From: Escherichia coli
Lineage (GTDB): Bacteria; Pseudomonadota; Gammaproteobacteria; Enterobacterales; Enterobacteriaceae
Assembly: GCF_046105845.1 (NCBI RefSeq)
Contig: NZ_CP151004.1
DNA: 64,000 bases
Reading direction: 5' to 3' (one strand)
Shown here: piece after piece, positions 40-57,360 of the stretch
How the letters are laid out: every line of letters begins with the position of its first letter
Numbering within the stretch: position 1 is the stretch's first letter
The notes under the pieces: model-generated
Told to the model about the DNA's origin: nothing
Seen by the model: the letters and a program-made list of their open reading frames with translations, nothing else
The model's database searches: none
Translations under genes and position numbers: made by a program

Positions 40-501
40 TTGCTACCTCCTTTATTATCGTTAACACCTCAACGTGCCAGATGTATTTTTGAATCGTCGT
101 CCACAATCGAATCGATTCAGATAAGGGCTACAACCAAAAACCCCTGCGTTTCGCGATTTATTTTAGATATCGAAAAAATTATTTTATGTGATGAAGATCC
201 GTAATTTAACTTTCGATTAGCAGAAATTTCGAAAGGTAAAATATCCTTGTCACATTCGTTTGCAAAGGAAGGTAAATCTTTGCCAAATCAGAGGCGTCTC
301 TGATATGTTTAACTCCCGTTTAACAACCATGGAGTATAGGGCAGTAGCCCGCAGTATGGATCGTCACCGACGTCATTTCAGCATCAGGCCTTTTAACGCC
401 TGTCTTTCTGGCACTCTATGCCGCACCTTTCGTTTGCATTTTGTCGTTACGCCTGCATTATTTCTGGCGTCGAATAGCTATTCCTTAAGCAGGAGCTTGT
501 C

Positions 502-2058
502 ATGGAATTCTTAATGGACCCCTCAATTTGGGCGGGGCTACTCACGCTTGTTGTTCTCGAAATTGTGCTGGGTATCGATAACCTGGTCTTCATCGCCATT
601 CTTGCTGACAAACTGCCGCCAAAACAACGCGATAAAGCGCGTTTGCTGGGATTATCACTGGCGCTGATTATGCGTCTGGGGCTGCTGTCGCTGATTTCAT
701 GGATGGTCACGCTGACCAAACCGCTATTTACCGTCATGGATTTCTCCTTCTCCGGACGCGACCTGATTATGTTGTTCGGGGGGATATTCTTGCTGTTCAA
801 AGCAACAACCGAACTGCATGAACGGCTGGAAAACCGCGATCATGATTCCGGCCACGGTAAAGGCTACGCCAGTTTCTGGGTGGTCGTCACACAGATTGTC
901 ATCCTTGACGCCGTCTTCTCGTTGGATGCGGTAATTACGGCAGTAGGGATGGTTAACCATCTGCCGGTGATGATGGCGGCGGTAGTGATTGCGATGGCGG
1001 TTATGTTGCTGGCATCGAAACCGCTGACGCGATTCGTTAACCAGCACCCCACGGTGGTGGTGCTCTGTCTGAGCTTCCTGTTAATGATTGGTCTGAGTCT
1101 GGTGGCAGAAGGTTTCGGTTTCCACATTCCGAAAGGTTACCTGTATGCCGCGATTGGCTTCTCGATCATCATCGAAGTGTTTAACCAAATTGCGCGTCGC
1201 AACTTTATTCGTCACCAGTCGACTTTGCCGCTGCGAGCGCGTACTGCCGATGCCATCCTGCGTTTGATGGGCGGGAAACGTCAGGCCAATGTTCAGCACG
1301 ATGCCGATAACCCGATGCCGATGCCGATCCCGGAAGGTGCATTTGCCGAAGAAGAACGTTACATGATTAACGGCGTACTGACGCTGGCGTCGCGTTCTCT
1401 GCGCGGGATCATGACGCCGCGCGGTGAAATAAGCTGGGTTGACGCTAATCTCGGGGTCGATGAAATCCGCGAGCAGCTGCTCTCCTCACCGCACAGCCTG
1501 TTCCCGGTATGTCGCGGTGAACTGGATGAAATCATCGGAATCGTACGTGCTAAAGAACTGCTGGTGGCGCTGGAAGAGGGCGTTGATGTGGCGGCGATTG
1601 CTTCGGCGTCTCCGGCGATTATCGTCCCTGAAACCCTCGATCCGATCAACCTGCTGGGCGTGCTGCGTCGTGCTCGCGGGAGCTTTGTTATCGTGACCAA
1701 CGAGTTTGGTGTGGTACAAGGTCTGGTCACGCCGCTGGATGTGCTGGAAGCCATTGCGGGTGAATTCCCGGACGCTGACGAAACGCCGGAAATCATTACC
1801 GATGGTGACGGCTGGCTGGTAAAAGGCGGTACAGATTTGCATGCCTTGCAGCAGGCGCTTGATGTTGAGCACCTTGCCGATGACGATGATATCGCGACGG
1901 TCGCGGGCCTCGTGATCTCGGCAAATGGTCACATTCCCCGTGTGGGCGATGTGATTGATGTAGGGCCACTGCATATCACCATCATTGAAGCCAATGATTA
2001 TCGTGTTGATCTGGTTCGCATTGTTAAAGAGCAACCGGCGCACGATGAAGATGAGTAA
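502..2058 (+). CDS. yoaE: TerC-family integral membrane protein with C-terminal CBS/CorC-type domains
   Basis: 518-aa ORF; hydrophobic N-terminal half, soluble C-terminal half; matches remembered YoaE length and sequence. Confidence 0.9.
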
Positions 2059-2061
2059 GCG

Positions 2062-3660
2062 TTAACGTAACGGCATAATGGGCGTGATATGTCCATTATG
2101 CCGGGCGGGCGGCGGTTGGCTGCCCGCCAGCCATTTGGGAAAATCACGTAGCGGCATCGGCTGTGCGTACAAATACCCTTGCAAAATATGCACGCCATGA
2201 CGGCGCAAATACTTCGCCTGTTCTTGCGTTTCCACGCCCTCCGCCACCAGTTCAATATTCAGTCTTTGCCCCAGCGCGATGATGATATCGGTCACCGTCG
2301 AGTTAACCGCGTCAGAACCTATAGCTGCGGTAAATGACTTATCAATTTTCAGCACGTCAGGACGTAATGTTTCAAGCCAGGAAAACGAACTGTTGCCGGT
2401 GCCGAAGTCATCAATCGCCAGTTTGACGTTTTTACGATGCAGCTCGCGGGCAATCCGATAATCAACATCCAGTAAGGCATCGCGTTCGGTGATTTCGAGG
2501 ATCAGTTGCTGAATCGGGTGAGCGCTAAACCAGTACTGATTGAGATCTTTTATCAGCACACCACGGCGAAAATGACTGGGTGCGACGTTAATGCCAACAT
2601 GAAACTGACTACTCATTGGGAAAACATGCCGCTGACGGATGGTTTCTGCCATCACATAGCGGGTCAGTGGCACAATTAAATGATGTTCTTCCGCGATAGG
2701 AATAAACACATCCGGTGAAATCCAGCCCTGACGTGGATTGTTCCAGCGCAGCAAAATCTCTACACCAATACATTGCTGGCTGCGCGCATTAAGCAAAGGC
2801 TGACAGAACAATTCGAACTCATGTTGCGCCAGGCCCAGATTGATTTCGCGGGAAAAGCTCATTCGGTAAGCGGTCGCCAGCCAGGCGATATAGCCCACCA
2901 GTAAACTTAGCAGCACCGCCAGCGGTAATTGTGTTGGAAGATAGTGCCATGCCAGCGCCGTAGCCCCCGGACCATTAACGTTAATGGTAAAAGGAAAGCG
3001 TTGCGAAGAAACCTGATAGTTTTCATTGTCTTCAGGTTGCGGAAGGGAATCTACCAGCCCATTACCATAGAGCAAATGCCGTTTGTCCACCGTCAGGCTG
3101 GCGCTACTGATTTGCGGCAGTTGTGGCTCAAGGAGCATTGCCGTCAGTAAGTCGATGTTAATCATCTCCATGACCCCAGCATTGCTACTGCCCGCTGCAG
3201 GTGTCCATTGAATCAAAACCGGACTGCCTTTAATCAGGGCATGGTCGGTCGTCAGGCGTAAAAGTGGTTGCGGTGCAGGAAGTTCAGCCAGAATGTCCAC
3301 GACGGGCACATTGCGATAACCAAAAATGCTGGAGCAATAAAGTGTGCCGTCTTGCACCAGGCCAATGGATCGCACAGTTTGGAGTTTTGCCGCCTGTTTA
3401 CGTAATGGCAAATGGGCGACAGAGCAGGGCAGACCAATCAGCGGAAGCAAGACTTCGCTACCTGCCTGTAGGGGAAGCAGTACTTTATCTAATTCCTCTA
3501 CAGCGTGATTGGCGAATTGTACTACCCGTTGTTGATTTAAGTTACGCTGTGAAATAAATCGCACGCTCAGGGTCGAAGCGAGCGTAACGAGTGCGCAAAT
3601 CGTACAAACAATCATTCGATTACGGCGATAGGTTTTAATGATCCGTTGTGCTTTTTGCAT
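2062..3660 (-). CDS. pdeD: CSS-motif-domain c-di-GMP phosphodiesterase (EAL domain)
   Basis: Track ORF 2062..3690; start moved to internal Met (MQKAQRII) giving 532 aa; N-terminal TM plus LYCSSIF (CSS) motif and C-terminal EAL-type domain. Confidence 0.85.
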   Translation of the reverse strand: MQKAQRIIKTYRRNRMIVCTICALVTLASTLSVRFISQRNLNQQRVVQFANHAVEELDKVLLPLQAGSEVLLPLIGLPCSVAHLPLRKQAAKLQTVRSIGLVQDGTLYCSSIFGYRNVPVVDILAELPAPQPLLRLTTDHALIKGSPVLIQWTPAAGSSNAGVMEMINIDLLTAMLLEPQLPQISSASLTVDKRHLLYGNGLVDSLPQPEDNENYQVSSQRFPFTINVNGPGATALAWHYLPTQLPLAVLLSLLVGYIAWLATAYRMSFSREINLGLAQHEFELFCQPLLNARSQQCIGVEILLRWNNPRQGWISPDVFIPIAEEHHLIVPLTRYVMAETIRQRHVFPMSSQFHVGINVAPSHFRRGVLIKDLNQYWFSAHPIQQLILEITERDALLDVDYRIARELHRKNVKLAIDDFGTGNSSFSWLETLRPDVLKIDKSFTAAIGSDAVNSTVTDIIIALGQRLNIELVAEGVETQEQAKYLRRHGVHILQGYLYAQPMPLRDFPKWLAGSQPPPARHNGHITPIMPLR

Positions 3661-3790: not shown

Positions 3791-5155
3791 TTAGTCACAC
3801 TGGACTTTGATTGCCAGACCACCGCGTGAGGTTTCGCGGTATTTGGCGTTCATGTCCTTACCGGTTTCGTACATCGTTTCGATGACCTTATCCAGCGAGA
3901 CGCGCGGTGCACTGGTGCGGCGCAGAGCCATCCGTGCGGCGTTAATCGCCTTCACAGAGGCAATGGCATTACGCTCAATGCACGGCACCTGAACCTGCCC
4001 TGCAACCGGGTCGCAGGTTAAACCAAGGTTGTGTTCCATGCCAATTTCCGCCGCCACGCAAACCTGTTCCGGGCTACCGCCCAGCAGTTCTGCAAGACCC
4101 GCAGCAGCCATTGAACAGGCAACACCCACTTCGCCCTGGCAACCAACTTCCGCACCGGAAATAGAGGCGTTCATTTTATACAATGCACCAATCGCGCCCG
4201 CTGCCATAAAGTAACGGGTATAGATGTCCGGGCTGACCGATTCAATAAAGTGGTCATAGTAAGCCAGCACTGCCGGAACGATACCGCAGGCACCGTTGGT
4301 TGGCGCAGTTACCACACGACCACCGGCGGCGTTTTCTTCGTTAACTGCCAGCGCAAACATGTTTACCCAGTCAATGACATTCATCGGATCGTTAGACAGT
4401 TTATCGCTGGAAACTAACATCCGGCGCAGGGCCGACGCACGACGCGGCACGCGCAGCGGGCCTGGCAGTACGCCTTCGGTATTCATCCCGCGATCGATAC
4501 ATGCCTGCATGGTTTGCCAGACATGAGCGAAATACTCGTCGATCTCTTTCTTGCTGTGTAGCGCCAGTTCGTTCTGCATAGCGAGACCAGAAAGCGAATA
4601 GCCGGTTTCATTACAGTACGCGAGCAGTTCGGTGGCAGATTTGAACGGATACGGCACGCTCACTTCGTTGGCGGCATCCTGACCAAAGTGTTCTTCATCG
4701 ACGATAAAACCGCCGCCGATGGAATAATAAGTTTTGCTGTAGACGACTTCATCGCCGTTATAGGCGTGGATTTGCATACCGTTTTCATGCAGCGGCAGGT
4801 TGCCGTTATGAAAACGCATCCCGTTGTCGCGCGGGAAATCCACTTCATGCCGTCCCTGTGCCAGCAGCAGACGTTCGCGCTCTTCTACGTCGCGAATAAA
4901 ACCGGGAATACTGTCGATATCCACGGTGGCAGGTTCGTTACCTGCAAGACCCATAATAATGGCGATATCGGTGTGGTGGCCTTTACCCGTCAGCGACAGT
5001 GAACCATAAACGTCCACGGCAACGCGAGTAACGCTATCCAGTAAGCCTTTTTCGACCAGATCATCGACGAACTGTTTACCCGCCTTCATAGGCCCTACGG
5101 TATGGGAAGATGAGGGACCAATCCCCACCTTAAACATGTCGAATAGACTAATCAC
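3791..5155 (-). CDS. sdaA: L-serine dehydratase 1 (4Fe-4S)
   Basis: 454-aa ORF beginning [23 protein letters not shown]; full-length match to remembered SdaA. Confidence 0.95.
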
Positions 5156-7355: not shown

Positions 7356-7535
7356 ATGTTTGCAGGTTTACCTTCACTCACCCATGAACAGCAGCAAAAA
7401 GCTGTCGAGCGGATCCAGGAACTGATGGCTCAAGGGATGAGCAGCGGCCAGGCAATCGCGTTGGTGGCAGAAGAGCTGCGTGCCAACCATTCCGGCGAGC
7501 GAATCGTGGCGCGTTTTGAGGATGAAGACGAGTAA
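7356..7535 (+). CDS. yoaH: UPF0181 small protein (59 aa)
   Basis: Not in ORF track; ATG preceded by AGGAG, translates [59 protein letters not shown], stop TAA. Confidence 0.75.
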
Positions 7536-12340: not shown

Positions 12341-14026
12341 TTGAAGAAGGTTTGGCTTAACCGTTATCCCGCGGACGTTCCGACGGAGATCAACCCTGAC
12401 CGTTATCAATCTCTGGTAGATATGTTTGAGCAGTCGGTCGCGCGCTACGCCGATCAACCCGCGTTTGTGAATATGGGGGAGGTGATGACCTTCCGCAAAC
12501 TGGAAGAACGCAGTCGCGCGTTTGCCGCTTATTTGCAACAAGGGTTGGGGCTGAAGAAAGGCGATCGCGTTGCGTTGATGATGCCTAATTTATTGCAATA
12601 TCCGGTGGCGCTGTTTGGCATTTTGCGTGCCGGGATGATTGTCGTAAACGTTAACCCGTTGTATACCCCGCGTGAACTTGAGCATCAGCTTAACGATAGC
12701 GGCGCATCGGCGATTGTTATCGTGTCTAACTTTGCCCACACTCTGGAAAAAGTGGTTGATAAAACTGCTGTTCAGCACGTTATTTTGACCCGTATGGGCG
12801 ATCAGCTATCTACGGCAAAAGGCACAGTAGTCAACTTCGTTGTTAAATACATCAAGCGTCTGGTGCCGAAATACCATCTGCCAGATGCCATTTCATTTCG
12901 TAGCGCCCTGCACAACGGCTACCGGATGCAGTACGTCAAACCCGAACTGGTGCCGGAAGATTTAGCTTTCCTGCAATACACCGGCGGTACCACTGGTGTG
13001 GCGAAAGGCGCGATGCTGACTCACCGCAATATGCTGGCGAACCTGGAACAGGTTAACGCGACCTATGGTCCGCTGTTGCATCCGGGCAAAGAGCTGGTGG
13101 TGACGGCGCTGCCGCTGTATCACATTTTTGCACTGACCATTAACTGCCTGCTGTTTATCGAACTGGGTGGGCAGAACCTGCTTATCACTAACCCGCGCGA
13201 TATTCCAGGGTTGGTAAAAGAGTTAGCGAAATATCCGTTTACCGCTATCACTGGCGTTAACACTTTGTTCAATGCGTTGCTGAACAATAAAGAGTTCCAG
13301 CAGCTGGATTTCTCCAGTCTGCATCTTTCCGCAGGCGGAGGGATGCCTGTTCAGCAAGTGGTGGCAGAACGTTGGGTGAAACTGACTGGACAGTATCTGC
13401 TGGAAGGTTATGGCCTGACCGAGTGTGCGCCGCTGGTCAGCGTTAACCCGTATGATATTGATTATCATAGCGGTAGCATCGGTTTGCCGGTGCCATCGAC
13501 GGAAGCCAAACTGGTGGATGACGACGACAACGAAGTACCACCGGGTCAACCGGGTGAGCTTTGTGTCAAAGGACCGCAGGTGATGCTGGGTTACTGGCAG
13601 CGTCCGGATGCTACCGATGAAATCATCAAAAATGGCTGGTTACACACCGGCGACATCGCGGTGATGGATGAAGAAGGATTCCTGCGTATTGTCGATCGCA
13701 AAAAAGACATGATTCTGGTTTCCGGTTTTAACGTCTATCCCAACGAGATTGAAGATGTCGTCATGCAGCATCCTGGCGTACAGGAAGTCGCGGCTGTTGG
13801 CGTACCTTCTGGCTCCAGTGGTGAAGCGGTGAAAATCTTCGTAGTGAAAAAAGATCCATCGCTTACCGAAGAGTCACTGGTGACCTTTTGCCGCCGTCAG
13901 CTCACGGGCTACAAAGTACCGAAGCTGGTGGAGTTTCGTGATGAGTTACCGAAATCTAACGTCGGAAAAATTTTGCGACGAGAATTACGTGACGAAGCGC
14001 GCGGCAAAGTGGACAATAAAGCCTGA
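12341..14026 (+). CDS. fadD: Long-chain fatty acid-CoA ligase
   Basis: Track ORF 12275..14026; start set to in-frame TTG ([14 protein letters not shown]) giving the remembered 561-aa FadD; AMP-binding motif [12 protein letters not shown]. Confidence 0.9.
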
Positions 14027-14046
14027 GCGTTAAGTCAGTCGTCAGA

Positions 14047-14071
14047 CGCCGGTTAATCCGGCGTTTTTTTT
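14047..14071 (+). terminator. Rho-independent terminator of fadD
   Basis: Stem CGCCGG/CCGGCG with loop TTAAT followed by a run of 8 T, about 20 nt after the fadD stop. Confidence 0.6.
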
Positions 14072-17453: not shown

Positions 17454-19064
17454 TCAGTTGTCGCCTTTGAATACGGTTCCCGCAGGGAGCACTGGCGTTT
17501 TTTCCAGGACTTCAACCGGTGTCTGCGGGAGATAATGTTCAACTTGATGAGCCGGAATGTCGGCGTAATCCTGTTTCAGCCAGCGAATAAATCCGCCGAC
17601 TTTCACCAGTAAAATGACGAGGAACGGAAGGGCTGTGAGTACGACGGTGGTTTTCATCGTTTCCAGCGACGCGCCAGTGAAAAGAATTGAAAGCGGGATC
17701 AGGGTAATTACCACGCACCAGAAAAGACGCAGCCCACGGTCAGGATCGTCACCTTCCTGGAGATTACGCGTACTGGTTGCCGCCATGGTGTAGGCCACCG
17801 CATCCATATGCGAGGCAAGGAAAATAATCATCACGCCCAGGTATGCGGCGAGGAATAATTTACCGGCTGGCAACGACATCAGAACTTGCTGCACAGCTGT
17901 CTCGCCGCCCAGTGTTTCCAGCACCTGTGGGACGTTGATTACGCCATTGATAAACTGGTGAATGGCATAGCTTTCCATTACGCCGAAGAAGAACCAGCAA
18001 CCGACGGTGCTGCCGAGGATCAGTCCCCAGATAACTTCTTTAATCTTACGACCGCGCGAAACGCGGGTGACAAACATTGCTACGCCAGGCGTGTATGAGA
18101 TCCACCACAGCCAGTAGAAAACGGTCCAGTTGCGGGTAAATGAACCATCGCCAAGCGGATCGGTGAATAAGCTCATTTGCAGGAAGTTTTGCGTGGTCAG
18201 GCCGATGGCATTGATGATGCTGTTGGTAATAAATTCGGTTGGACCGACAATCAGCACCAGTAATGGCAGCAGGAACGCGCCCCAGCCAACCATTTTGCTC
18301 AGACGTTGCAAACCGTTGTTGATACCAATCCACGAGCTTAGGCAAAAAATGCCGCCGGAAAGCAGGATCACAAATGCCTGCACGGTGAAGTTATCGGGTA
18401 AACCGGTCAGCGCGGAAAGCCCACGAGTAAAGGTTGCTGCGGTAACAACAAGGGAAATGGTCAGCGCACCGACAGTGGCGATCAGGAACATCAAATCGAC
18501 CAGTTTTCCCCACGGGCCTTGCGGGCGAACGCCGGTAATCGCGGCAATAATCCCGGAAAGACTCAGACCTTTGTTTTTCCGCACATGAAAGTGATAAGCC
18601 ATGATTAATGAGGCCAGCGTATAAGTTGCCCAGGCGCTGATGCCCCAGTGGAAGAAGGAGTAAGGGACGCTAAATTCGAGTGCCTGTTGTGAACGCGGTG
18701 CGATATTTAATCCAGGTGTTTGATAATAATAGGCCCATTCAGCAACCCCCCAATAAAGCGTAGAAGAACCTAAACCGGCACAAATAAACATAAACAGCCA
18801 GGAGAGCGTGCTGTATTCCGGTTTTCCTTCGCCAAGACGAATATTGCCGTATTTACTGGTGGCTAAATAAATCACCAGTCCCATTGCCAGCAAAACCAAT
18901 ACCTGTACGGCGGAACCTAACGTACGCGTAACAAAAGTGTATATTGCGTTGGCCGCGTCGGCCGATTGTTGTGGGAAAAGGCTTAATGCAGCTGCGATGA
19001 AAAGAATGGCCACCAGGCTGATGCTTATCAGCGGCACATCTTTTTTCTTAACATTGCTCATCAT
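17454..19064 (-). CDS. yeaV: BCCT-family transporter (betaine/carnitine/choline type)
   Basis: 536-aa polytopic ORF; AGGAGA 6 nt upstream of the ATG; resembles CaiT/BetT; exact annotated start not verified. Confidence 0.8.
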
Positions 19065-19314
19065 GAGTCATCTCCTGGGCATAAAAGCCCGTCTCTGGCT
19101 TTTGCCAGTTGTAATTATTTGCAGGGTAATGAGTTGCATATTGTGTTTAACAAATTGATTATTTGCATGTTACATAAATTAAACAATTAAGAATACGGAA
19201 AGCCATAAAACACGAAACGGAAACAATAAAAGGTGAAATGACGCAGGTTATTAACTGCAAAGAACGAATAAAAAAACCGCGTCAGTGACGCGGTTCAAAT
19301 AAACTGGTTTGACC

Positions 19315-22909: not shown

Positions 22910-23056
22910 TTATCTCTGATCGTTGATGGCGCAATTTCTGCGCCATCGCAAAAAAATCGTCCGTGATGCTCGTCACAAATCTTGCCCTCCCGATGTTGTG
23001 CTATGCTTTTTATCAGCGACTAACCCGCTAATGCAAAACAGATAAGTGAGGAAACA

Positions 23057-23305
23057 ATGGGCATTCTGTCATGGATTATTTTTGGGCTTATTGCCGGTAT
23101 TCTGGCGAAGTGGATCATGCCAGGTAAAGATGGTGGTGGATTCTTTATGACTATCCTGCTGGGGATAGTCGGTGCCGTAGTCGGCGGATGGATCAGCACG
23201 CTGTTTGGCTTTGGTAAAGTCGATGGCTTCAATTTTGGCAGCTTCGTGGTTGCCGTTATTGGCGCGATTGTCGTGCTGTTTATCTACAGAAAGATTAAAA
23301 GTTAA
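23057..23305 (+). CDS. yeaQ: GlsB/YeaQ/YmgE-family small membrane protein
   Basis: 82-aa glycine-rich two-TM ORF (MGILSWIIFGLIAGILAKWIMPGK). Confidence 0.85.
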   Translation: MGILSWIIFGLIAGILAKWIMPGKDGGGFFMTILLGIVGAVVGGWISTLFGFGKVDGFNFGSFVVAVIGAIVVLFIYRKIKS

Positions 23306-23317
23306 CGCGTAAATTGC

Positions 23318-23350
23318 ACAAAGGCTGCACACAGGCAGCCTTTGCTATTT
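23318..23350. terminator. Hairpin terminator between yeaQ and yoaJ
   Basis: AAAGGCTGC-ACAC-AGGCAGCCTTT stem-loop followed by a T-rich tract, directly after the yeaQ stop. Confidence 0.4.
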
Positions 23351-23363
23351 TCTAGATGTGACG

Positions 23364-23438
23364 TTACCACCATCCCAGCTCAGTGCCGAGTACGACAATA
23401 ATCGCCACACCCATCATAATAATCGTTGTTTTTTTCAT
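23364..23438 (-). CDS. yoaJ: Small membrane protein (24 aa)
   Basis: Not in ORF track; minus-strand ATG translates MKKTTIIMMGVAIIVVLGTELGWW, matching remembered YoaJ. Confidence 0.6.
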   Translation of the reverse strand: MKKTTIIMMGVAIIVVLGTELGWW

Positions 23439-23440
23439 CT

Positions 23441-23539
23441 TTATGCTCCCGGGGCAGCATAGCCGCCAATAAAAAACCATGCTAAAAATACGACCGCTGT
23501 AATAAAGATTACAACCGGAAAAATAATACCGATTCGCAT
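23441..23539 (-). CDS. yoaK: Small membrane protein (32 aa)
   Basis: Not in ORF track; minus-strand ATG translates MRIGIIFPVVIFITAVVFLAWFFIGGYAAPGA; stop abuts the yoaJ start. Confidence 0.6.
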   Translation of the reverse strand: MRIGIIFPVVIFITAVVFLAWFFIGGYAAPGA

Positions 23540-23571
23540 GTTATCACCAATCAAAAGGATGTGAATACGCC

Positions 23572-24597
23572 TCAGGAATGTAGCGCTGGATGCGCGACAA
23601 AAGGTGTTTTCTGTTTGTGTTTTTTCTCCTGATACATCGCGATATCGGCAGCATGCAGGGCACTGTCTGCATCGGTCGTTTCAGGATCGACTTCTACTAT
23701 GCCAAGACTGGCACCGGGATAATACAAATCAACATCACCTAAGTGATATTCTCCACGTATTTGCTGCTGAATACGTTCTCGCAGAGACGAAATATCCGCA
23801 TTCTCGTTGTTCAGTGAAACAACCAAAAACTCATCACCGCCGAGACGACCAATAACTTCGCCATTTTGCTGGAGCGTATTAAGGCGCTCGCCAACCTGAA
23901 TGAGGAACAAATCACCACTATTATGACCAAAACGATCGTTGATTAATTTGAAGTTATCCAGATCGATAAACGCGATCATTATCTTATGGTTAAGATGTCG
24001 GGCGAGAGAAAACAGCGTCGTCAGGTTTTCAAAAATCGCCCGCCGATTCGGTAGCCCGGTTAACGAGTCGGTATACGATTGCGCAATCAGCGCAGCATTG
24101 GCTTCGCGCAGCTGTTCAACCAGTGCTTCTTTTTGAATATATTGTGCAATCAGTCCGGCGAATAACTGCAAAACCTGTTCCGCGCGTTCACTCCACTGGC
24201 GCTTCTCACTGCTGGCGGCGCAAAGCGTGCCATAGAATGATCCATCCGGTAAGTGAATTGGCGTGCTCAGAAATGTGGTGATGCCAAGATTGCGTGCCGC
24301 AATACAGTCGCCCCAACGGTCGGGGACTTCATCGCTGAAAAAGCAGTTTTCATCAATGGCGCGTTTGCATAACGAGTAATCCCACGAGACGGTAAAATTC
24401 TCCGGGATGTGCATTTTCTGGCTGTTACGGGCAAACATTATATGCTGCAGGCGCGCTTCGACATCCACTTTGGTCAGGTAGGTTGATTCCATATCAGTGA
24501 CCATTTCCAGCATCTCCAGAAGCTGTCGGACCAGACTTTCCAGTGACTGTTCTTTGGCAAGGGATTGCGAGACGCGGGCGATAATCTGATCTGACAC
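23572..24597 (-). CDS. dgcP: Diguanylate cyclase (GAF-GGDEF)
   Basis: Track ORF 23572..24726; start moved to in-frame GTG (SDQIIARVSQ) giving 341 aa; intact GGDEF (RLGGDEFLV). Confidence 0.85.
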   Translation of the reverse strand: MSDQIIARVSQSLAKEQSLESLVRQLLEMLEMVTDMESTYLTKVDVEARLQHIMFARNSQKMHIPENFTVSWDYSLCKRAIDENCFFSDEVPDRWGDCIAARNLGITTFLSTPIHLPDGSFYGTLCAASSEKRQWSERAEQVLQLFAGLIAQYIQKEALVEQLREANAALIAQSYTDSLTGLPNRRAIFENLTTLFSLARHLNHKIMIAFIDLDNFKLINDRFGHNSGDLFLIQVGERLNTLQQNGEVIGRLGGDEFLVVSLNNENADISSLRERIQQQIRGEYHLGDVDLYYPGASLGIVEVDPETTDADSALHAADIAMYQEKKHKQKTPFVAHPALHS

Positions 24598-28129: not shown

Positions 28130-28234
28130 ATGAACGATCAAATGTTCGTCGAGACACTGATTATCACGTCATCGTTTTTTGCCATTGCTGTTGTGCTGGT
28201 TTTGTCCGTTCTTCTTATCGAACGGACAGGCTAG
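28130..28234 (+). CDS. yoaI: Small membrane protein (34 aa)
   Basis: Not in ORF track; translates [34 protein letters not shown]; its TAG stop directly abuts the yeaK stop on the opposite strand. Confidence 0.6.
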
Positions 28235-55352: not shown

Positions 55353-57299
55353 ATGCGGTTGTTTATTGCCGAAAAACCGAGTCTGGCGCGCGCCATTGCT
55401 GATGTCCTGCCCAAACCGCACCGGAAAGGCGATGGCTTTATCGAGTGCGGTAATGGTCAGGTGGTGACCTGGTGTATCGGTCACCTGCTTGAGCAGGCGC
55501 AGCCAGACGCCTACGACAGCCGCTATGCGCGCTGGAATCTTGCGGATTTGCCGATTGTCCCGGAAAAGTGGCAATTACAGCCCCGACCCTCCGTGACTAA
55601 ACAACTTAATGTCATCAAACGCTTCCTGCATGAAGCCAGCGAAATCGTTCACGCCGGTGACCCGGATCGCGAAGGGCAATTACTGGTGGATGAAGTGCTG
55701 GACTATCTGCAACTGGCACCGGAAAAGCGCCAGCAGGTACAGCGTTGTTTGATAAACGACATGAACCCGCAGGCGGTTGAGCGGGCGATCGATCGTCTTC
55801 GTTCCAACAGTGAGTTTGTGCCGTTGTGCGTTTCTGCACTGGCGCGGGCCCGAGCCGACTGGCTGTACGGCATCAATATGACCCGCGCTTACACCATTCT
55901 CGGTCGCAATGCGGGTTATCAGGGCGTGCTTTCCGTGGGACGCGTGCAGACGCCCGTACTCGGACTGGTGGTGCGCCGCGACGAAGAGATTGAAAACTTC
56001 GTGGCGAAAGATTTCTTTGAAGTCAAAGCGCATATCGTGACACCTGCCGATGAGCGGTTTACCGCTATCTGGCAACCGAGCGAAGCGTGTGAACCTTATC
56101 AGGATGAAGAAGGACGCTTGTTACATCGTCCGCTGGCGGAGCATGTGGTTAACCGCATCAGCGGTCAACCGGCTATTGTCACCAGCTATAACGATAAACG
56201 GGAATCAGAATCCGCGCCGCTGCCGTTTTCGCTTTCGGCGTTGCAGATTGAAGCGGCTAAACGCTTTGGTCTGAGCGCGCAGAACGTGCTTGATATCTGC
56301 CAGAAGTTGTACGAAACGCACAAGCTAATCACTTATCCGCGTTCCGATTGTCGCTATCTGCCGGAAGAGCATTTTGCCGGACGCCACGCAGTGATGAATG
56401 CCATCAGCGTTCATACACCGGGCTTGTTACCGCAGCCAGTGGTCGATCCAGATATACGCAACCGCTGCTGGGATGACAAAAAGGTCGATGCGCACCACGC
56501 CATCATCCCGACCGCACGGAGTTCTGCGATCAACCTGACGGAGAACGAAGCGAAGGTCTATAACCTGATTGCCCGTCAGTATTTGATGCAATTCTGCCCG
56601 GATGCGGTGTTCCGCAAGTGTGTTATCGAACTGGACATTGCCAAAGGCAAATTTGTCGCTAAAGCCCGTTTTCTTGCTGAAGCAGGCTGGCGCACGCTGT
56701 TAGGCAGCAAAGAGCGCGATGAAGAAAACGACGGCACGCCGCTGCCTGTGGTGGCGAAAGGCGATGAATTGTTGTGCGAAAAAGGTGAAGTGGTAGAGCG
56801 GCAAACCCAGCCGCCGCGCCATTTTACCGATGCAACACTGCTTTCGGCGATGACCGGGATCGCGCGCTTTGTGCAGGACAAAGATCTGAAAAAGATCCTT
56901 CGTGCGACCGATGGTCTGGGGACAGAAGCAACGCGTGCCGGGATTATTGAACTGTTGTTCAAGCGTGGTTTCCTGACCAAAAAAGGGCGCTATATCCACT
57001 CCACCGACGCCGGAAAAGCGTTATTCCATTCGCTGCCAGAAATGGCTACGCGACCGGATATGACCGCGCACTGGGAATCGGTGCTGACGCAAATCAGCGA
57101 AAAGCAGTGTCGCTACCAGGACTTTATGCAGCCGCTGGTGGGGACGCTTTACCAACTGATTGATCAGGCTCGTAGCACTCCGGTCAGACGGTTTAGAGGA
57201 ATTGTGGCACCAGGTGGGGGGGCTGTTAAAAAAGCACCCAATAAGCGAGTAAAAAAAGCGGCAAAGCCCAAAAAAGATAATACGGATTCTGCTAATTAA
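55353..57299 (+). CDS. topB: DNA topoisomerase III
   Basis: Track ORF 55296..57299; start set to [14 protein letters not shown], 4 nt after the selD stop; lysine-rich C-terminus. Confidence 0.9.
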
Positions 57300-57320
57300 T
57301 TCGTTTTCCACTCTAAAACA

Positions 57321-57360
57321 AAGCCAATGGTAGATATTCCGCCATTGGCTTTATTGGTTA
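57321..57360 (+). terminator. Candidate terminator of topB
   Basis: Perfect 10-bp stem AAGCCAATGG/CCATTGGCTT with 11-nt loop followed by TTATTGGTT, about 20 nt after the topB stop. Confidence 0.5.

What the first reader, a model, noticed from the sequence alone, without database searches (positions are those of the whole stretch)
23364..23539. Two tandem tiny membrane-protein genes (yoaJ, yoaK) missing from the ORF track
Between yeaQ and dgcP the minus strand encodes two abutting ORFs of 24 and 32 codons, each a single hydrophobic helix; a third (yoaI, 34 aa, 28130..28234) and a 59-aa soluble one (yoaH, 7356..7535) are also absent from the track. ORF callers with length cutoffs miss these, so other tiny genes may remain unrecognised in the intergenic regions here.
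Basis: partly seen in the sequence, partly recalled or inferred. Interest (0 to 1): 0.4.

Follow-up and report, generated by a model that had tools for sequence, protein, structure and literature searches.

The report
Known tiny membrane proteins YoaK and YoaJ
The two abutting mini-genes are real: they are the already annotated and experimentally detected E. coli small inner-membrane proteins YoaK (32 aa) and YoaJ (24 aa), conserved across enteric bacteria, so the finding is correct but not new, and only their cellular role is still unknown.

Summary
On the minus strand, yoaK (23441..23539, 32 codons) and yoaJ (23364..23438, 24 codons) lie 2 nt apart. They sit 32 nt downstream of dgcP and are followed by a hairpin shared with convergent yeaQ.

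- **Annotation:** both are annotated in RefSeq E. coli genomes and in K-12 (b4676, b4675). Both pass curated NCBIfam models, as do yoaI and yoaH.
- **Why they were missed:** all four are under 60 aa, which explains their absence from a length-filtered ORF list.
- **Conservation:** the unit is present in 5402 of 5426 complete E. coli genomes. Across 80 Enterobacteriaceae species, yoaK is intact in 79. yoaJ follows it in 67, always 24 codons, spaced -4 to +3 nt (translational coupling).
- **Selection:** substitutions show purifying selection only in the annotated frames (pN/pS 0.14-0.29, against more than 1 in the other frames).
- **Literature:** tagged proteins are detected, YoaJ is N-in/C-out in the membrane, YoaJ is induced by diamide, a yeaP-yoaK-yoaJ operon is reported, and RseP cleaves both peptides.

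No function is known. The most likely role is a co-made pair of single-pass peptides that modulates a larger membrane protein.

Verdict: already known, low interest.

The parts
23441..23539 (-). yoaK: 32-codon gene (ATG...TAA) for a single-pass small inner-membrane protein, MRIGIIFPVVIFITAVVFLAWFFIGGYAAPGA
   Evidence: NCBIfam NF033821, 69.1 bits against a cut-off of 32. RefSeq and K-12 b4676. Intact in 79 of 80 species. pN/pS 0.14-0.18 in this frame only.
23364..23438 (-). yoaJ: 24-codon gene (ATG...TAA) for a single-pass small inner-membrane protein, MKKTTIIMMGVAIIVVLGTELGWW
   Evidence: NCBIfam NF011343, 60.4 bits against a cut-off of 54. RefSeq and K-12 b4675. Present in 67 of 80 loci, always 24 codons followed by a stop. 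pN/pS 0.29 in this frame only.
23544..23548 (-). Shine-Dalgarno-like GGTGA, 4 nt before the yoaK ATG
   Evidence: Sequence. An AGGTGA-type motif sits at the same place in most other genera.
23446..23450 (-). Shine-Dalgarno-like GGGAG for yoaJ, lying inside the last codons (Pro-Gly-Ala) of yoaK. The yoaK stop and the yoaJ start are 2 nt apart.
   Evidence: Sequence. Spacing of -4 to +3 nt in 66 of 67 loci; 38 of 67 yoaJ starts have no SD-like motif, which fits translational coupling.
23319..23344 (.). GC-rich hairpin between the convergent yoaJ and yeaQ genes; probable terminator for both. The T-run is good on the + (yeaQ) side and weak on the - (yoaJ) side.
   Evidence: 10 pairs, 6 G-C. A hairpin follows yoaJ in all 12 loci printed from the 67 folded; median folding energy of the 70 nt after yoaJ across the 67 is about -19 kcal/mol.
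23572..24597 (-). dgcP (yeaP), a diguanylate cyclase gene. Its stop lies 32 nt before the yoaK start; it is the upstream gene of the reported yeaP-yoaK-yoaJ transcription unit.
   Evidence: Operon reported from RNA-seq in PMC4620388. Full-length dgcP lies directly upstream in 58 of 67 loci that have yoaJ.
23057..23305 (+). yeaQ (GlsB/YeaQ/YmgE family membrane protein), the convergent neighbour
   Evidence: Convergent yeaQ is present in 52 of 67 loci with yoaJ.
28130..28234 (+). yoaI: 34-aa small membrane protein, also named in the finding
   Evidence: NCBIfam NF041475, 79.8 bits against a cut-off of 45. Published EnvZ activator under PhoB control (PMC11429745).
7356..7535 (+). yoaH: 59-aa soluble protein (UPF0181/YoaH family), also named in the finding
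   Evidence: NCBIfam NF003476, 114.2 bits against a cut-off of 72.
   Evidence: K-12 b4751. 99.4% DNA match at 356..514. A stop codon in yoaL lowers yoaE-lacZ expression, and the likely start is 13 codons downstream of the original annotation (10.1101/511675).

Best explanation
Shown:
- These are the known E. coli genes yoaK and yoaJ.
- Each encodes one hydrophobic helix with a positively charged N-terminus (MR-, MKK-) and a short conserved C-terminal tail (GGYAxPG; GWW-stop).
- They lie at the 3' end of the dgcP transcription unit, are read one after the other with a spacing of -4 to +3 nt, and are followed by a hairpin.
- Both peptide sequences are under purifying selection across Enterobacteriaceae.

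From the literature:
- Both proteins are made. YoaK-SPA is detectable at a low level.
- YoaJ sits in the inner membrane N-in/C-out and rises after diamide treatment.
- Both can be cleaved by the intramembrane protease RseP.

Inferred:
- The tight, conserved spacing and the frequent lack of a separate ribosome-binding site mean that yoaJ is translated by ribosomes terminating on yoaK. The two peptides would then be made together, in a coupled ratio.
- My best guess for function (about 35%) is that they act as a pair in the inner membrane. They would bind and tune a larger membrane protein under envelope or redox stress, as MgrB, AcrZ, MgtS and YoaI do, and RseP would clear them.
- The target is unknown. 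It is not obligatorily DgcP, because Salmonella and some Citrobacter keep the pair without dgcP.
For: Sequence and annotation:
- Exact ORFs and motifs.
- RefSeq and K-12 annotation.
- NCBIfam equivalogs passed.

Population:
- 5402 of 5426 complete E. coli genomes hold at least 80% of the 206-bp unit, and 5242 are at least 99% identical.

Comparative:
- 109 genome matches, with 80 loci kept from about 20 genera of Enterobacteriaceae.
- yoaK is intact in 79 of 80 loci.
- yoaJ is found in 67 of 80, all 24 codons followed by a stop; starts are ATG in 53 and GTG in 13.
- Spacing is -4 (11 loci), -1 (2), 0 (30), +2 (21) and +3 (2).
- pN/pS is 0.14-0.18 (yoaK) and 0.29 (yoaJ) in the annotated frame, against 1.1-2.9 in the other frames. 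Variable columns by codon position are 15/10/29 and 16/11/22.
- 38 of 67 yoaJ starts lack an SD-like motif, and a hairpin follows yoaJ in all 12 loci printed from the 67 folded.
- Salmonella has yoaF-yoaK-yoaJ-hairpin-yeaQ without dgcP.

Literature:
- YoaK-SPA detected (10.1101/511675).
- YoaJ type II topology and membrane integration (PMC4597795).
- Diamide induction of YoaJ (PMC12542507).
- RseP cleavage of both in vitro (PMC10470546).
- yeaP-yoaK-yoaJ operon (PMC4620388).
- Ribosome-profiling signal on yoaK (PMC4666370).
Against: No function, partner or phenotype is known.
- A deletion from yeaJ to yeaV, which includes both genes, had no effect on growth or competitive fitness in M9 glucose (PMC9769844).
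- One E. coli strain lost yoaK through an IS1-associated deletion.
- YoaK occurs without YoaJ in 13 loci (Kosakonia, Phytobacter, Pluralibacter and relatives) in varying contexts, so YoaK can work without YoaJ.
- No direct evidence exists that the two peptides interact.
- RseP results differ with the tag used.
- Neither peptide matches any chain of a solved structure or any Pfam family.
- On the minus strand the hairpin is followed by a poor T-run, so termination of the yoaJ transcript there is inferred, not shown.
Confidence: 0.9

Rival explanations
1. The peptides are dedicated partners of the diguanylate cyclase DgcP. For example, they could tether or regulate the soluble GAF-GGDEF enzyme at the membrane, so the three genes would form one functional module.
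For: - yoaK starts 32 nt after the dgcP stop.
- Full-length dgcP lies directly upstream in 58 of 67 loci that have yoaJ, 17-57 nt away in nearly all.
- A three-gene operon is reported from RNA-seq (PMC4620388).
Against: - Salmonella arizonae and diarizonae, the Citrobacter amalonaticus/sedlakii group and two Enterobacter genomes keep intact yoaK-yoaJ without an adjacent dgcP.
- Solo yoaK loci have no dgcP.
- The synteny may simply be inherited gene order.
- No interaction data exist.
Confidence: 0.12
2. The two peptides have separate, unrelated functions and are adjacent only through shared history and shared transcription.
For: - YoaK exists alone in 13 loci.
- The two peptides behaved differently in the RseP assays.
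- Diamide induction is reported for YoaJ only.
Against: - Wherever yoaJ exists it directly follows yoaK, with a spacing of -4 to +3 nt in 66 of 67 loci.
- No locus with yoaJ alone was seen. However, loci were found through YoaK, so this is biased.
Confidence: 0.2
3. The ORFs matter only because they are translated (regulatory or spacer ORFs in the dgcP 3' region, like the leader ORF yoaL), and the peptides themselves have no function.
For: - Small ORFs with a purely regulatory role exist in the same window (yoaL-yoaE; 10.1101/511675).
- YoaK protein level is low.
Against: - Amino-acid sequences are conserved with pN/pS 0.14-0.29, with invariant residues (P8, W21, F22, G26, A28 in YoaK; the C-terminal GWW in all but one YoaJ).
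- No gene lies downstream to regulate: a hairpin and convergent yeaQ follow.
- The proteins accumulate in the membrane.
Confidence: 0.03
4. The ORFs are chance open frames in a conserved non-coding region (a dgcP 3' UTR or terminator region), or they are type I toxin-like hydrophobic peptides.
For: - Many ORFs of this size occur by chance (33 of at least 20 aa in 1.4 kb).
- Type I toxins are also short hydrophobic peptides.
Against: - Third-position-biased variation and low pN/pS occur only in the annotated frames.
- The frames are intact in 79 of 80 and 66 of 67 species.
- The curated families are passed.
- No Rfam family lies at the site; only sroD is found elsewhere in the window.
- YoaJ is used as a well-tolerated periplasmic fusion tag (PMC7558204).
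- Tagged proteins are detected.
Confidence: 0.02

Closest known systems
YoaK family small membrane protein (NCBIfam NF033821; E. coli K-12 b4676) and protein YoaJ (NCBIfam NF011343; K-12 b4675)
   Same: The same genes. There are full-length matches above the curated cut-offs. The neighbours dgcP and yeaQ are the same, and the RefSeq annotation is the same.
   Different: Nothing of substance. The window comes from a non-K-12 E. coli, about 98% identical to K-12 over the window.
YoaI (34 aa, in the same window), MgrB, AcrZ and MgtS: small single-pass inner-membrane proteins that bind and modulate larger membrane proteins (EnvZ, PhoQ, AcrB, MgtA/PitA)
   Same: Size, a single transmembrane helix, inner-membrane location, stress-linked expression, and discovery by the same small-protein surveys (PMC11429745, PMC12648545, 10.1101/511675).
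   Different: No sequence similarity. No target is known for YoaK or YoaJ. They come as a translationally coupled pair at the end of a larger gene's transcript rather than as a single gene with its own regulated promoter.
RseP (S2P) substrates among small membrane proteins (YqfG, YkgR, HokB and others)
   Same: Both peptides are cleaved by purified RseP in vitro, and 3xFLAG-YoaJ falls in an RseP-dependent way in vivo (PMC10470546).
   Different: They are 'class II' candidates with tag-dependent, inconsistent in vivo results. HA-MBP-YoaJ is bound but not cleaved (PMC4597795).
Upstream or leader small ORFs such as yoaL-yoaE
   Same: Tiny ORFs tightly linked to a neighbouring gene's translation or transcription.
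   Different: yoaK and yoaJ lie downstream of the large gene, have nothing downstream to control, and their peptide sequences are under selection.

Membership tests
YoaK family small membrane protein (NCBIfam NF033821) | Whole-protein HMM score above the curated cut-off, aligned end to end | tested here: met
   69.1 bits against a cut-off of 32; residues 1-32 on profile positions 1-32 of 32.
YoaK family small membrane protein (NCBIfam NF033821) | Conserved residues of the family (M1, P8, A15, W21, F22, G26, A28; nearly invariant G4, F7, G25, Y27, P30) | tested here: met
   Alignment of 14 diverse homologues. The window protein carries all of these residues.
YoaK family small membrane protein (NCBIfam NF033821) | Conserved genomic place (after dgcP or yoaF, before yoaJ and convergent yeaQ) in Escherichia and relatives | tested here: met
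YoaK family small membrane protein (NCBIfam NF033821) | Protein made and located in the inner membrane | not testable with these tools
   Literature only: YoaK-SPA detected by immunoblot (10.1101/511675). The primary papers (Hemm 2008, Fontaine 2011) were not held.
Protein YoaJ (NCBIfam NF011343) | Whole-protein HMM score above the curated cut-off, aligned end to end | tested here: met
   60.4 bits against a cut-off of 54; residues 1-24 on profile positions 1-24 of 24.
Protein YoaJ (NCBIfam NF011343) | 24 codons, basic N-terminus (M-K/R-K-T/S-T) and C-terminal GWW-stop, directly after yoaK | tested here: met
   67 of 67 loci have a stop after codon 24, and 66 of 67 have an ATG or GTG start.
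Protein YoaJ (NCBIfam NF011343) | Type II (N-in/C-out) inner-membrane topology | not testable with these tools
   Stated as experimentally confirmed (Fontaine 2011) in PMC4597795, where membrane integration is also shown. The charge distribution (KK at the N-terminus) agrees.
Small membrane protein YoaI (NF041475) and YoaH family (NF003476) | Whole-protein HMM score above the curated cut-off | tested here: met
   YoaI 79.8 bits against 45; YoaH 114.2 bits against 72.
Type I toxin-antitoxin small hydrophobic toxins (considered) | Match to a known toxin family, or an antisense RNA antitoxin family at the locus | tested here: not met
   NCBIfam returns only the YoaK and YoaJ models. Rfam at gathering threshold finds nothing at the site. 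Toxicity was not tested here; YoaJ is used as a fusion tag.
Small-protein modulators of larger membrane proteins (MgrB/AcrZ/MgtS/YoaI type; a functional class, not a sequence family) | Demonstrated binding to, and change of activity of, a larger membrane protein | not tested
   No partner is reported. There is no match to any chain in the PDB. This is the mechanism I favour by analogy only.

The most novel reading that the evidence does not exclude
YoaK and YoaJ form a two-peptide membrane module functionally tied to the soluble diguanylate cyclase DgcP encoded just upstream. For instance, they might recruit it to the membrane or pass envelope or redox signals to it, giving local c-di-GMP signalling. 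The lineages without dgcP would then have re-used the pair for another partner. The 58 of 67 synteny and the coupled translation are compatible with this reading, and nothing here tests it.
Probability: 0.1. Interest if true: 0.45.

Novelty: already known. Interest (0 to 1): 0.07.

Why it matters
As a discovery it does not matter. Both genes have b-numbers and curated family models, and they appear in experimental papers.

It is a useful control for the scan. A sequence-only reader correctly recovered four sub-60-aa genes that a length-filtered ORF list drops.

The comparative data assembled here add a little:
- The yoaK-yoaJ pair is a stable, translationally coupled unit across Enterobacteriaceae.
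- The pair survives loss of dgcP.
- YoaK also exists alone in some genera.

The function of both peptides remains open.

Tried and rejected
I used the HMMER scan of 1.84 billion representatives instead (25 hits), followed by a genome scan.
- **Primary papers** (Hemm 2008, Fontaine 2011, Hemm 2010, and the EcoSal review) are not held. Their results are cited through papers that quote them.
- **Supplements** of the ribosome-profiling preprint are not held.
- **The Salmonella small-protein census** does not mention the genes.
- **Pfam** gave no significant family for YoaK.
- **PDB sequences** gave no chain for either peptide.
- **A whole-word literature search for 'yoaK'** mostly returned an author surname.
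- **A consensus promoter scan** found nothing convincing upstream of yoaK in E. coli or Salmonella. The E. coli hit overlaps the start codon and cannot serve yoaK.
- **A scan for other conserved small ORFs** in intergenic DNA within 4 kb gave nothing comparable. Weak hits upstream of yeaQ appeared in 9 loci or fewer, probably from conserved leader DNA.
- **Structure prediction** of a linked YoaK-YoaJ construct was considered and not run. The tool returns only per-residue confidence for one chain, which cannot show whether two helices pack.
- **My recollection that dgcP is RpoS-dependent** was wrong. Sarenko et al. report vegetative (RpoD) control.

Full report
**What is in the sequence**

On the minus strand, a 32-codon ORF runs from the ATG at 23539 to the TAA at 23443..23441 (MRIGIIFPVVIFITAVVFLAWFFIGGYAAPGA). 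Two nucleotides later, a 24-codon ORF runs from the ATG at 23438 to the TAA at 23366..23364 (MKKTTIIMMGVAIIVVLGTELGWW). Both are strongly hydrophobic (GRAVY 1.88 and 1.22), with a basic N-terminus and a short polar or aromatic tail.

- The first ORF begins 32 nt after the stop of dgcP (23572..24597, minus strand) and is preceded by GGTGA.
- The second is preceded by GGGAG, which lies inside the last codons of the first.
- Downstream lies a 10-bp-stem GC-rich hairpin (23319..23344), then the 3' end of the convergent yeaQ gene (23057..23305, plus strand).
- The tool's mechanical ORFs are slightly longer (38 and 37 aa), because they start at the first possible start codon. The internal ATGs are the real starts.

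**Is it more than chance?**

ORFs of this length are everywhere: 33 of at least 20 aa overlap the surrounding 1.4 kb. The ORFs alone therefore prove nothing. The evidence comes from elsewhere.

*Families and annotation.* The four proteins pass curated NCBIfam equivalog models end to end:

| Protein | Score (bits) | Cut-off (bits) |
|---|---|---|
| YoaK | 69.1 | 32 |
| YoaJ | 60.4 | 54 |
| YoaI | 79.8 | 45 |
| YoaH | 114.2 | 72 |

The window is E. coli chromosome, about 98% identical to K-12 and in reverse orientation to it. RefSeq annotates yoaK and yoaJ at this place. K-12 carries them as b4676 and b4675.

*Within E. coli.* The 206-bp unit is present at 80% coverage or more in 5402 of 5426 complete genomes. 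It is at least 99% identical in 5242. One strain (ATCC 43886) has lost yoaK and the 3' end of dgcP next to an IS1 element.

**Conservation across Enterobacteriaceae**

- An HMMER scan of 1.84 billion representative proteins found only 25 YoaK relatives. Several are artefactual fusions or frameshift products, including one YoaK-YoaJ fusion.
- Aligned cores show invariant M1, P8, A15, W21, F22, G26 and A28.
- A scan of one genome per species (100,044 species) with this alignment gave 109 confirmed matches. The best 80 loci cover Escherichia, Salmonella, Citrobacter, Enterobacter, Lelliottia, Leclercia, Klebsiella, Raoultella, Kluyvera, Kosakonia, Phytobacter and other Enterobacteriaceae.
- yoaK is an intact ATG-to-stop ORF in 79 of 80 loci. 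One Citrobacter assembly is frameshifted near the end.
- yoaJ follows in 67 of 80 loci. It is always 24 codons and then a stop. The start is ATG in 53, GTG in 13, and lost in one.
- The distance from the yoaK stop to the yoaJ start is -4 (11 loci), -1 (2), 0 (30), +2 (21) or +3 (2).

Substitutions are frame-specific:

| Gene | Variable columns, codon positions 1/2/3 | Pooled pN/pS, annotated frame | Pooled pN/pS, other two frames |
|---|---|---|---|
| yoaK | 15/10/29 | 0.14-0.18 | 1.6-2.9 |
| yoaJ | 16/11/22 | 0.29 | 1.1-1.8 |

This rules out a conserved non-coding element or a translation-only ORF as the main explanation.

**Gene context**

- Full-length dgcP lies directly upstream, on the same strand, in 58 of the 67 loci with yoaJ. 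One more locus is cut by a contig end. The gap is 17-57 nt in nearly all.
- Salmonella enterica subsp. arizonae and diarizonae, the Citrobacter amalonaticus/sedlakii group and two Enterobacter genomes have yoaK-yoaJ without an adjacent dgcP.
- In Salmonella the order is yoaF, about 196 nt of spacer, yoaK, yoaJ, the hairpin, then yeaQ. The pair is therefore kept when dgcP is gone.
- Convergent yeaQ is present in 52 of 67 loci.
- A hairpin follows yoaJ in all 12 loci printed from the 67 folded.
- 38 of 67 yoaJ starts have no Shine-Dalgarno-like motif. Together with the -4 to +3 spacing, this points to translation of yoaJ by ribosomes that have just finished yoaK.
- In 13 loci (Kosakonia, Phytobacter, Pluralibacter and relatives), a YoaK homologue stands alone, without yoaJ or dgcP. 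Its neighbours vary: a KTSC-like 77-aa ORF, a 310-aa multi-pass membrane protein, or eco-mqo.

**What is published**

[quoted passage not shown] (reference 16 of 10.1101/511675).
- That preprint uses YoaK-SPA as a benchmark for a weakly expressed but detectable small protein.
- YoaJ is described as a type II (N-in/C-out) membrane protein with experimentally confirmed topology. HA-MBP-YoaJ is integrally membrane associated (PMC4597795).
- YoaJ is reported to rise in diamide-treated cells (PMC12542507, citing Hemm 2010).
- YoaJ serves as a periplasm-directing fusion tag (PMC7558204).
- Purified RseP cleaves both peptides in vitro, but the in vivo results depend on the tag (PMC10470546).
- RNA-seq-based operon calling reports yeaP-yoaK-yoaJ as one unit (PMC4620388).
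- yoaK appears with a ribosome-profiling change in a RyhB study, unverified (PMC4666370).
- DgcP is expressed in growing cells under vegetative control (PMC5635695) and is higher at 37 °C in a uropathogenic strain (PMC12890032).
- A deletion from yeaJ to yeaV was neutral in M9 glucose, and the authors note that the functions of yoaK and yoaJ are unknown (PMC9769844).
- YoaI, the third small protein in the finding, is now a characterised activator of EnvZ under PhoB control (PMC11429745; PMC12648545).
- No paper held in the library assigns a function to YoaK or YoaJ.
- Neither peptide matches a chain in any solved structure, and YoaK has no Pfam family.

**How it most likely works**

Shown: there are two conserved genes for single-helix peptides at the end of the dgcP unit, with peptide-level selection. 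Shown by others: the proteins accumulate, and YoaJ spans the inner membrane N-in/C-out.

Inferred from spacing and from the missing ribosome-binding sites: the two are translationally coupled and so made together.

Inferred by analogy only (about one chance in three): they act as a pair that binds and tunes a larger inner-membrane protein under stress, and RseP removes them.

Rivals:
- A dedicated link to DgcP (about 0.1), weakened by lineages that keep the pair without dgcP.
- Independent functions (about 0.2), supported by solo YoaK.
- A translation-only role, or chance ORFs or toxins (a few percent together), contradicted by the selection pattern and the published protein data.

**Other tiny genes**

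The K-12 annotation has one more small gene inside the window. This is yoaL (b4751), the upstream ORF of yoaE, at window 356..514 (+). Its translation affects yoaE expression.

I scanned all intergenic start-to-stop ORFs of at least 12 aa within 4 kb of the site against the 75 non-Escherichia loci. This found nothing with conservation comparable to yoaK and yoaJ. Rfam finds only sroD in the window.

**Verdict**

The genes are already known, annotated and experimentally detected, so the finding is ordinary. What remains open is their function, which these tools cannot settle.

Noticed in passing
window 57214..61431: This stretch between topB and gdhA does not align with K-12, which has ynjI here. 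Instead the window carries two + strand ORFs: 57729..59444 (571 aa, Hsp70/DnaK-like) and 59426..61375 (649 aa, with a J-domain-like N-terminus and Sel1/TPR-like repeats).
   Followed up: no
window 356..514 (+): yoaL (K-12 b4751) is an annotated small upstream ORF overlapping the start of yoaE. Published work moves its likely start 13 codons downstream of the original annotation and shows that it affects yoaE expression.
   Followed up: partly
window 13985..14070 (+): sroD small RNA (Rfam RF00370, 115 bits) is the only Rfam family in the window at gathering threshold.
   Followed up: no
window 18936..19161: About 225 bp are present here but absent from K-12, inside or next to yeaV. yeaV is 1611 nt in the identical strain 1190 and 1446 nt in K-12, so the K-12 gene looks shortened.
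   Followed up: no
L064-L074, L082, L083 (YoaK at about 4001-4096): In Kosakonia, Phytobacter, Pluralibacter and relatives, a YoaK homologue (WFI-L/I-GGYA-T/N-PG) occurs alone, without yoaJ or dgcP. It often follows a 77-aa KTSC-like ORF. In five loci it lies about 150 nt before a 310-aa multi-pass membrane protein, and in three loci it lies next to eco and mqo.
   Followed up: partly
L031 3805..4200 (Salmonella enterica subsp. arizonae); also L037, L011, L014, L018, L021: These genomes have yoaF-yoaK-yoaJ-yeaQ with no dgcP in between. The pair must therefore have its own promoter in the spacer of about 196 nt, but the consensus scan found none on the right strand.
   Followed up: partly
L084 (E. 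coli ATCC 43886), locus 974..2573: An IS1B element sits where the 3' end of dgcP and all of yoaK should be. yoaJ remains and is annotated with an extended start. This is a rare natural loss of yoaK.
   Followed up: yes
window 22963..23031 (+), upstream of yeaQ: A 21-22-aa ORF in the yoaG-yeaQ spacer gives tblastn hits in 8-9 non-Escherichia loci. This is more likely conserved yeaQ leader or promoter DNA than a gene, and it has no SD-like motif.
   Followed up: no
P0002, P0004, P0008, P0016, P0024 (protein database entries): Several database 'proteins' are YoaK fused to out-of-frame or YoaJ sequence. An example is P0002, which is YoaK joined to YoaJ through a frameshift at the junction. They look like sequencing or gene-calling artefacts in the tight yoaK-yoaJ junction.
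   Followed up: no
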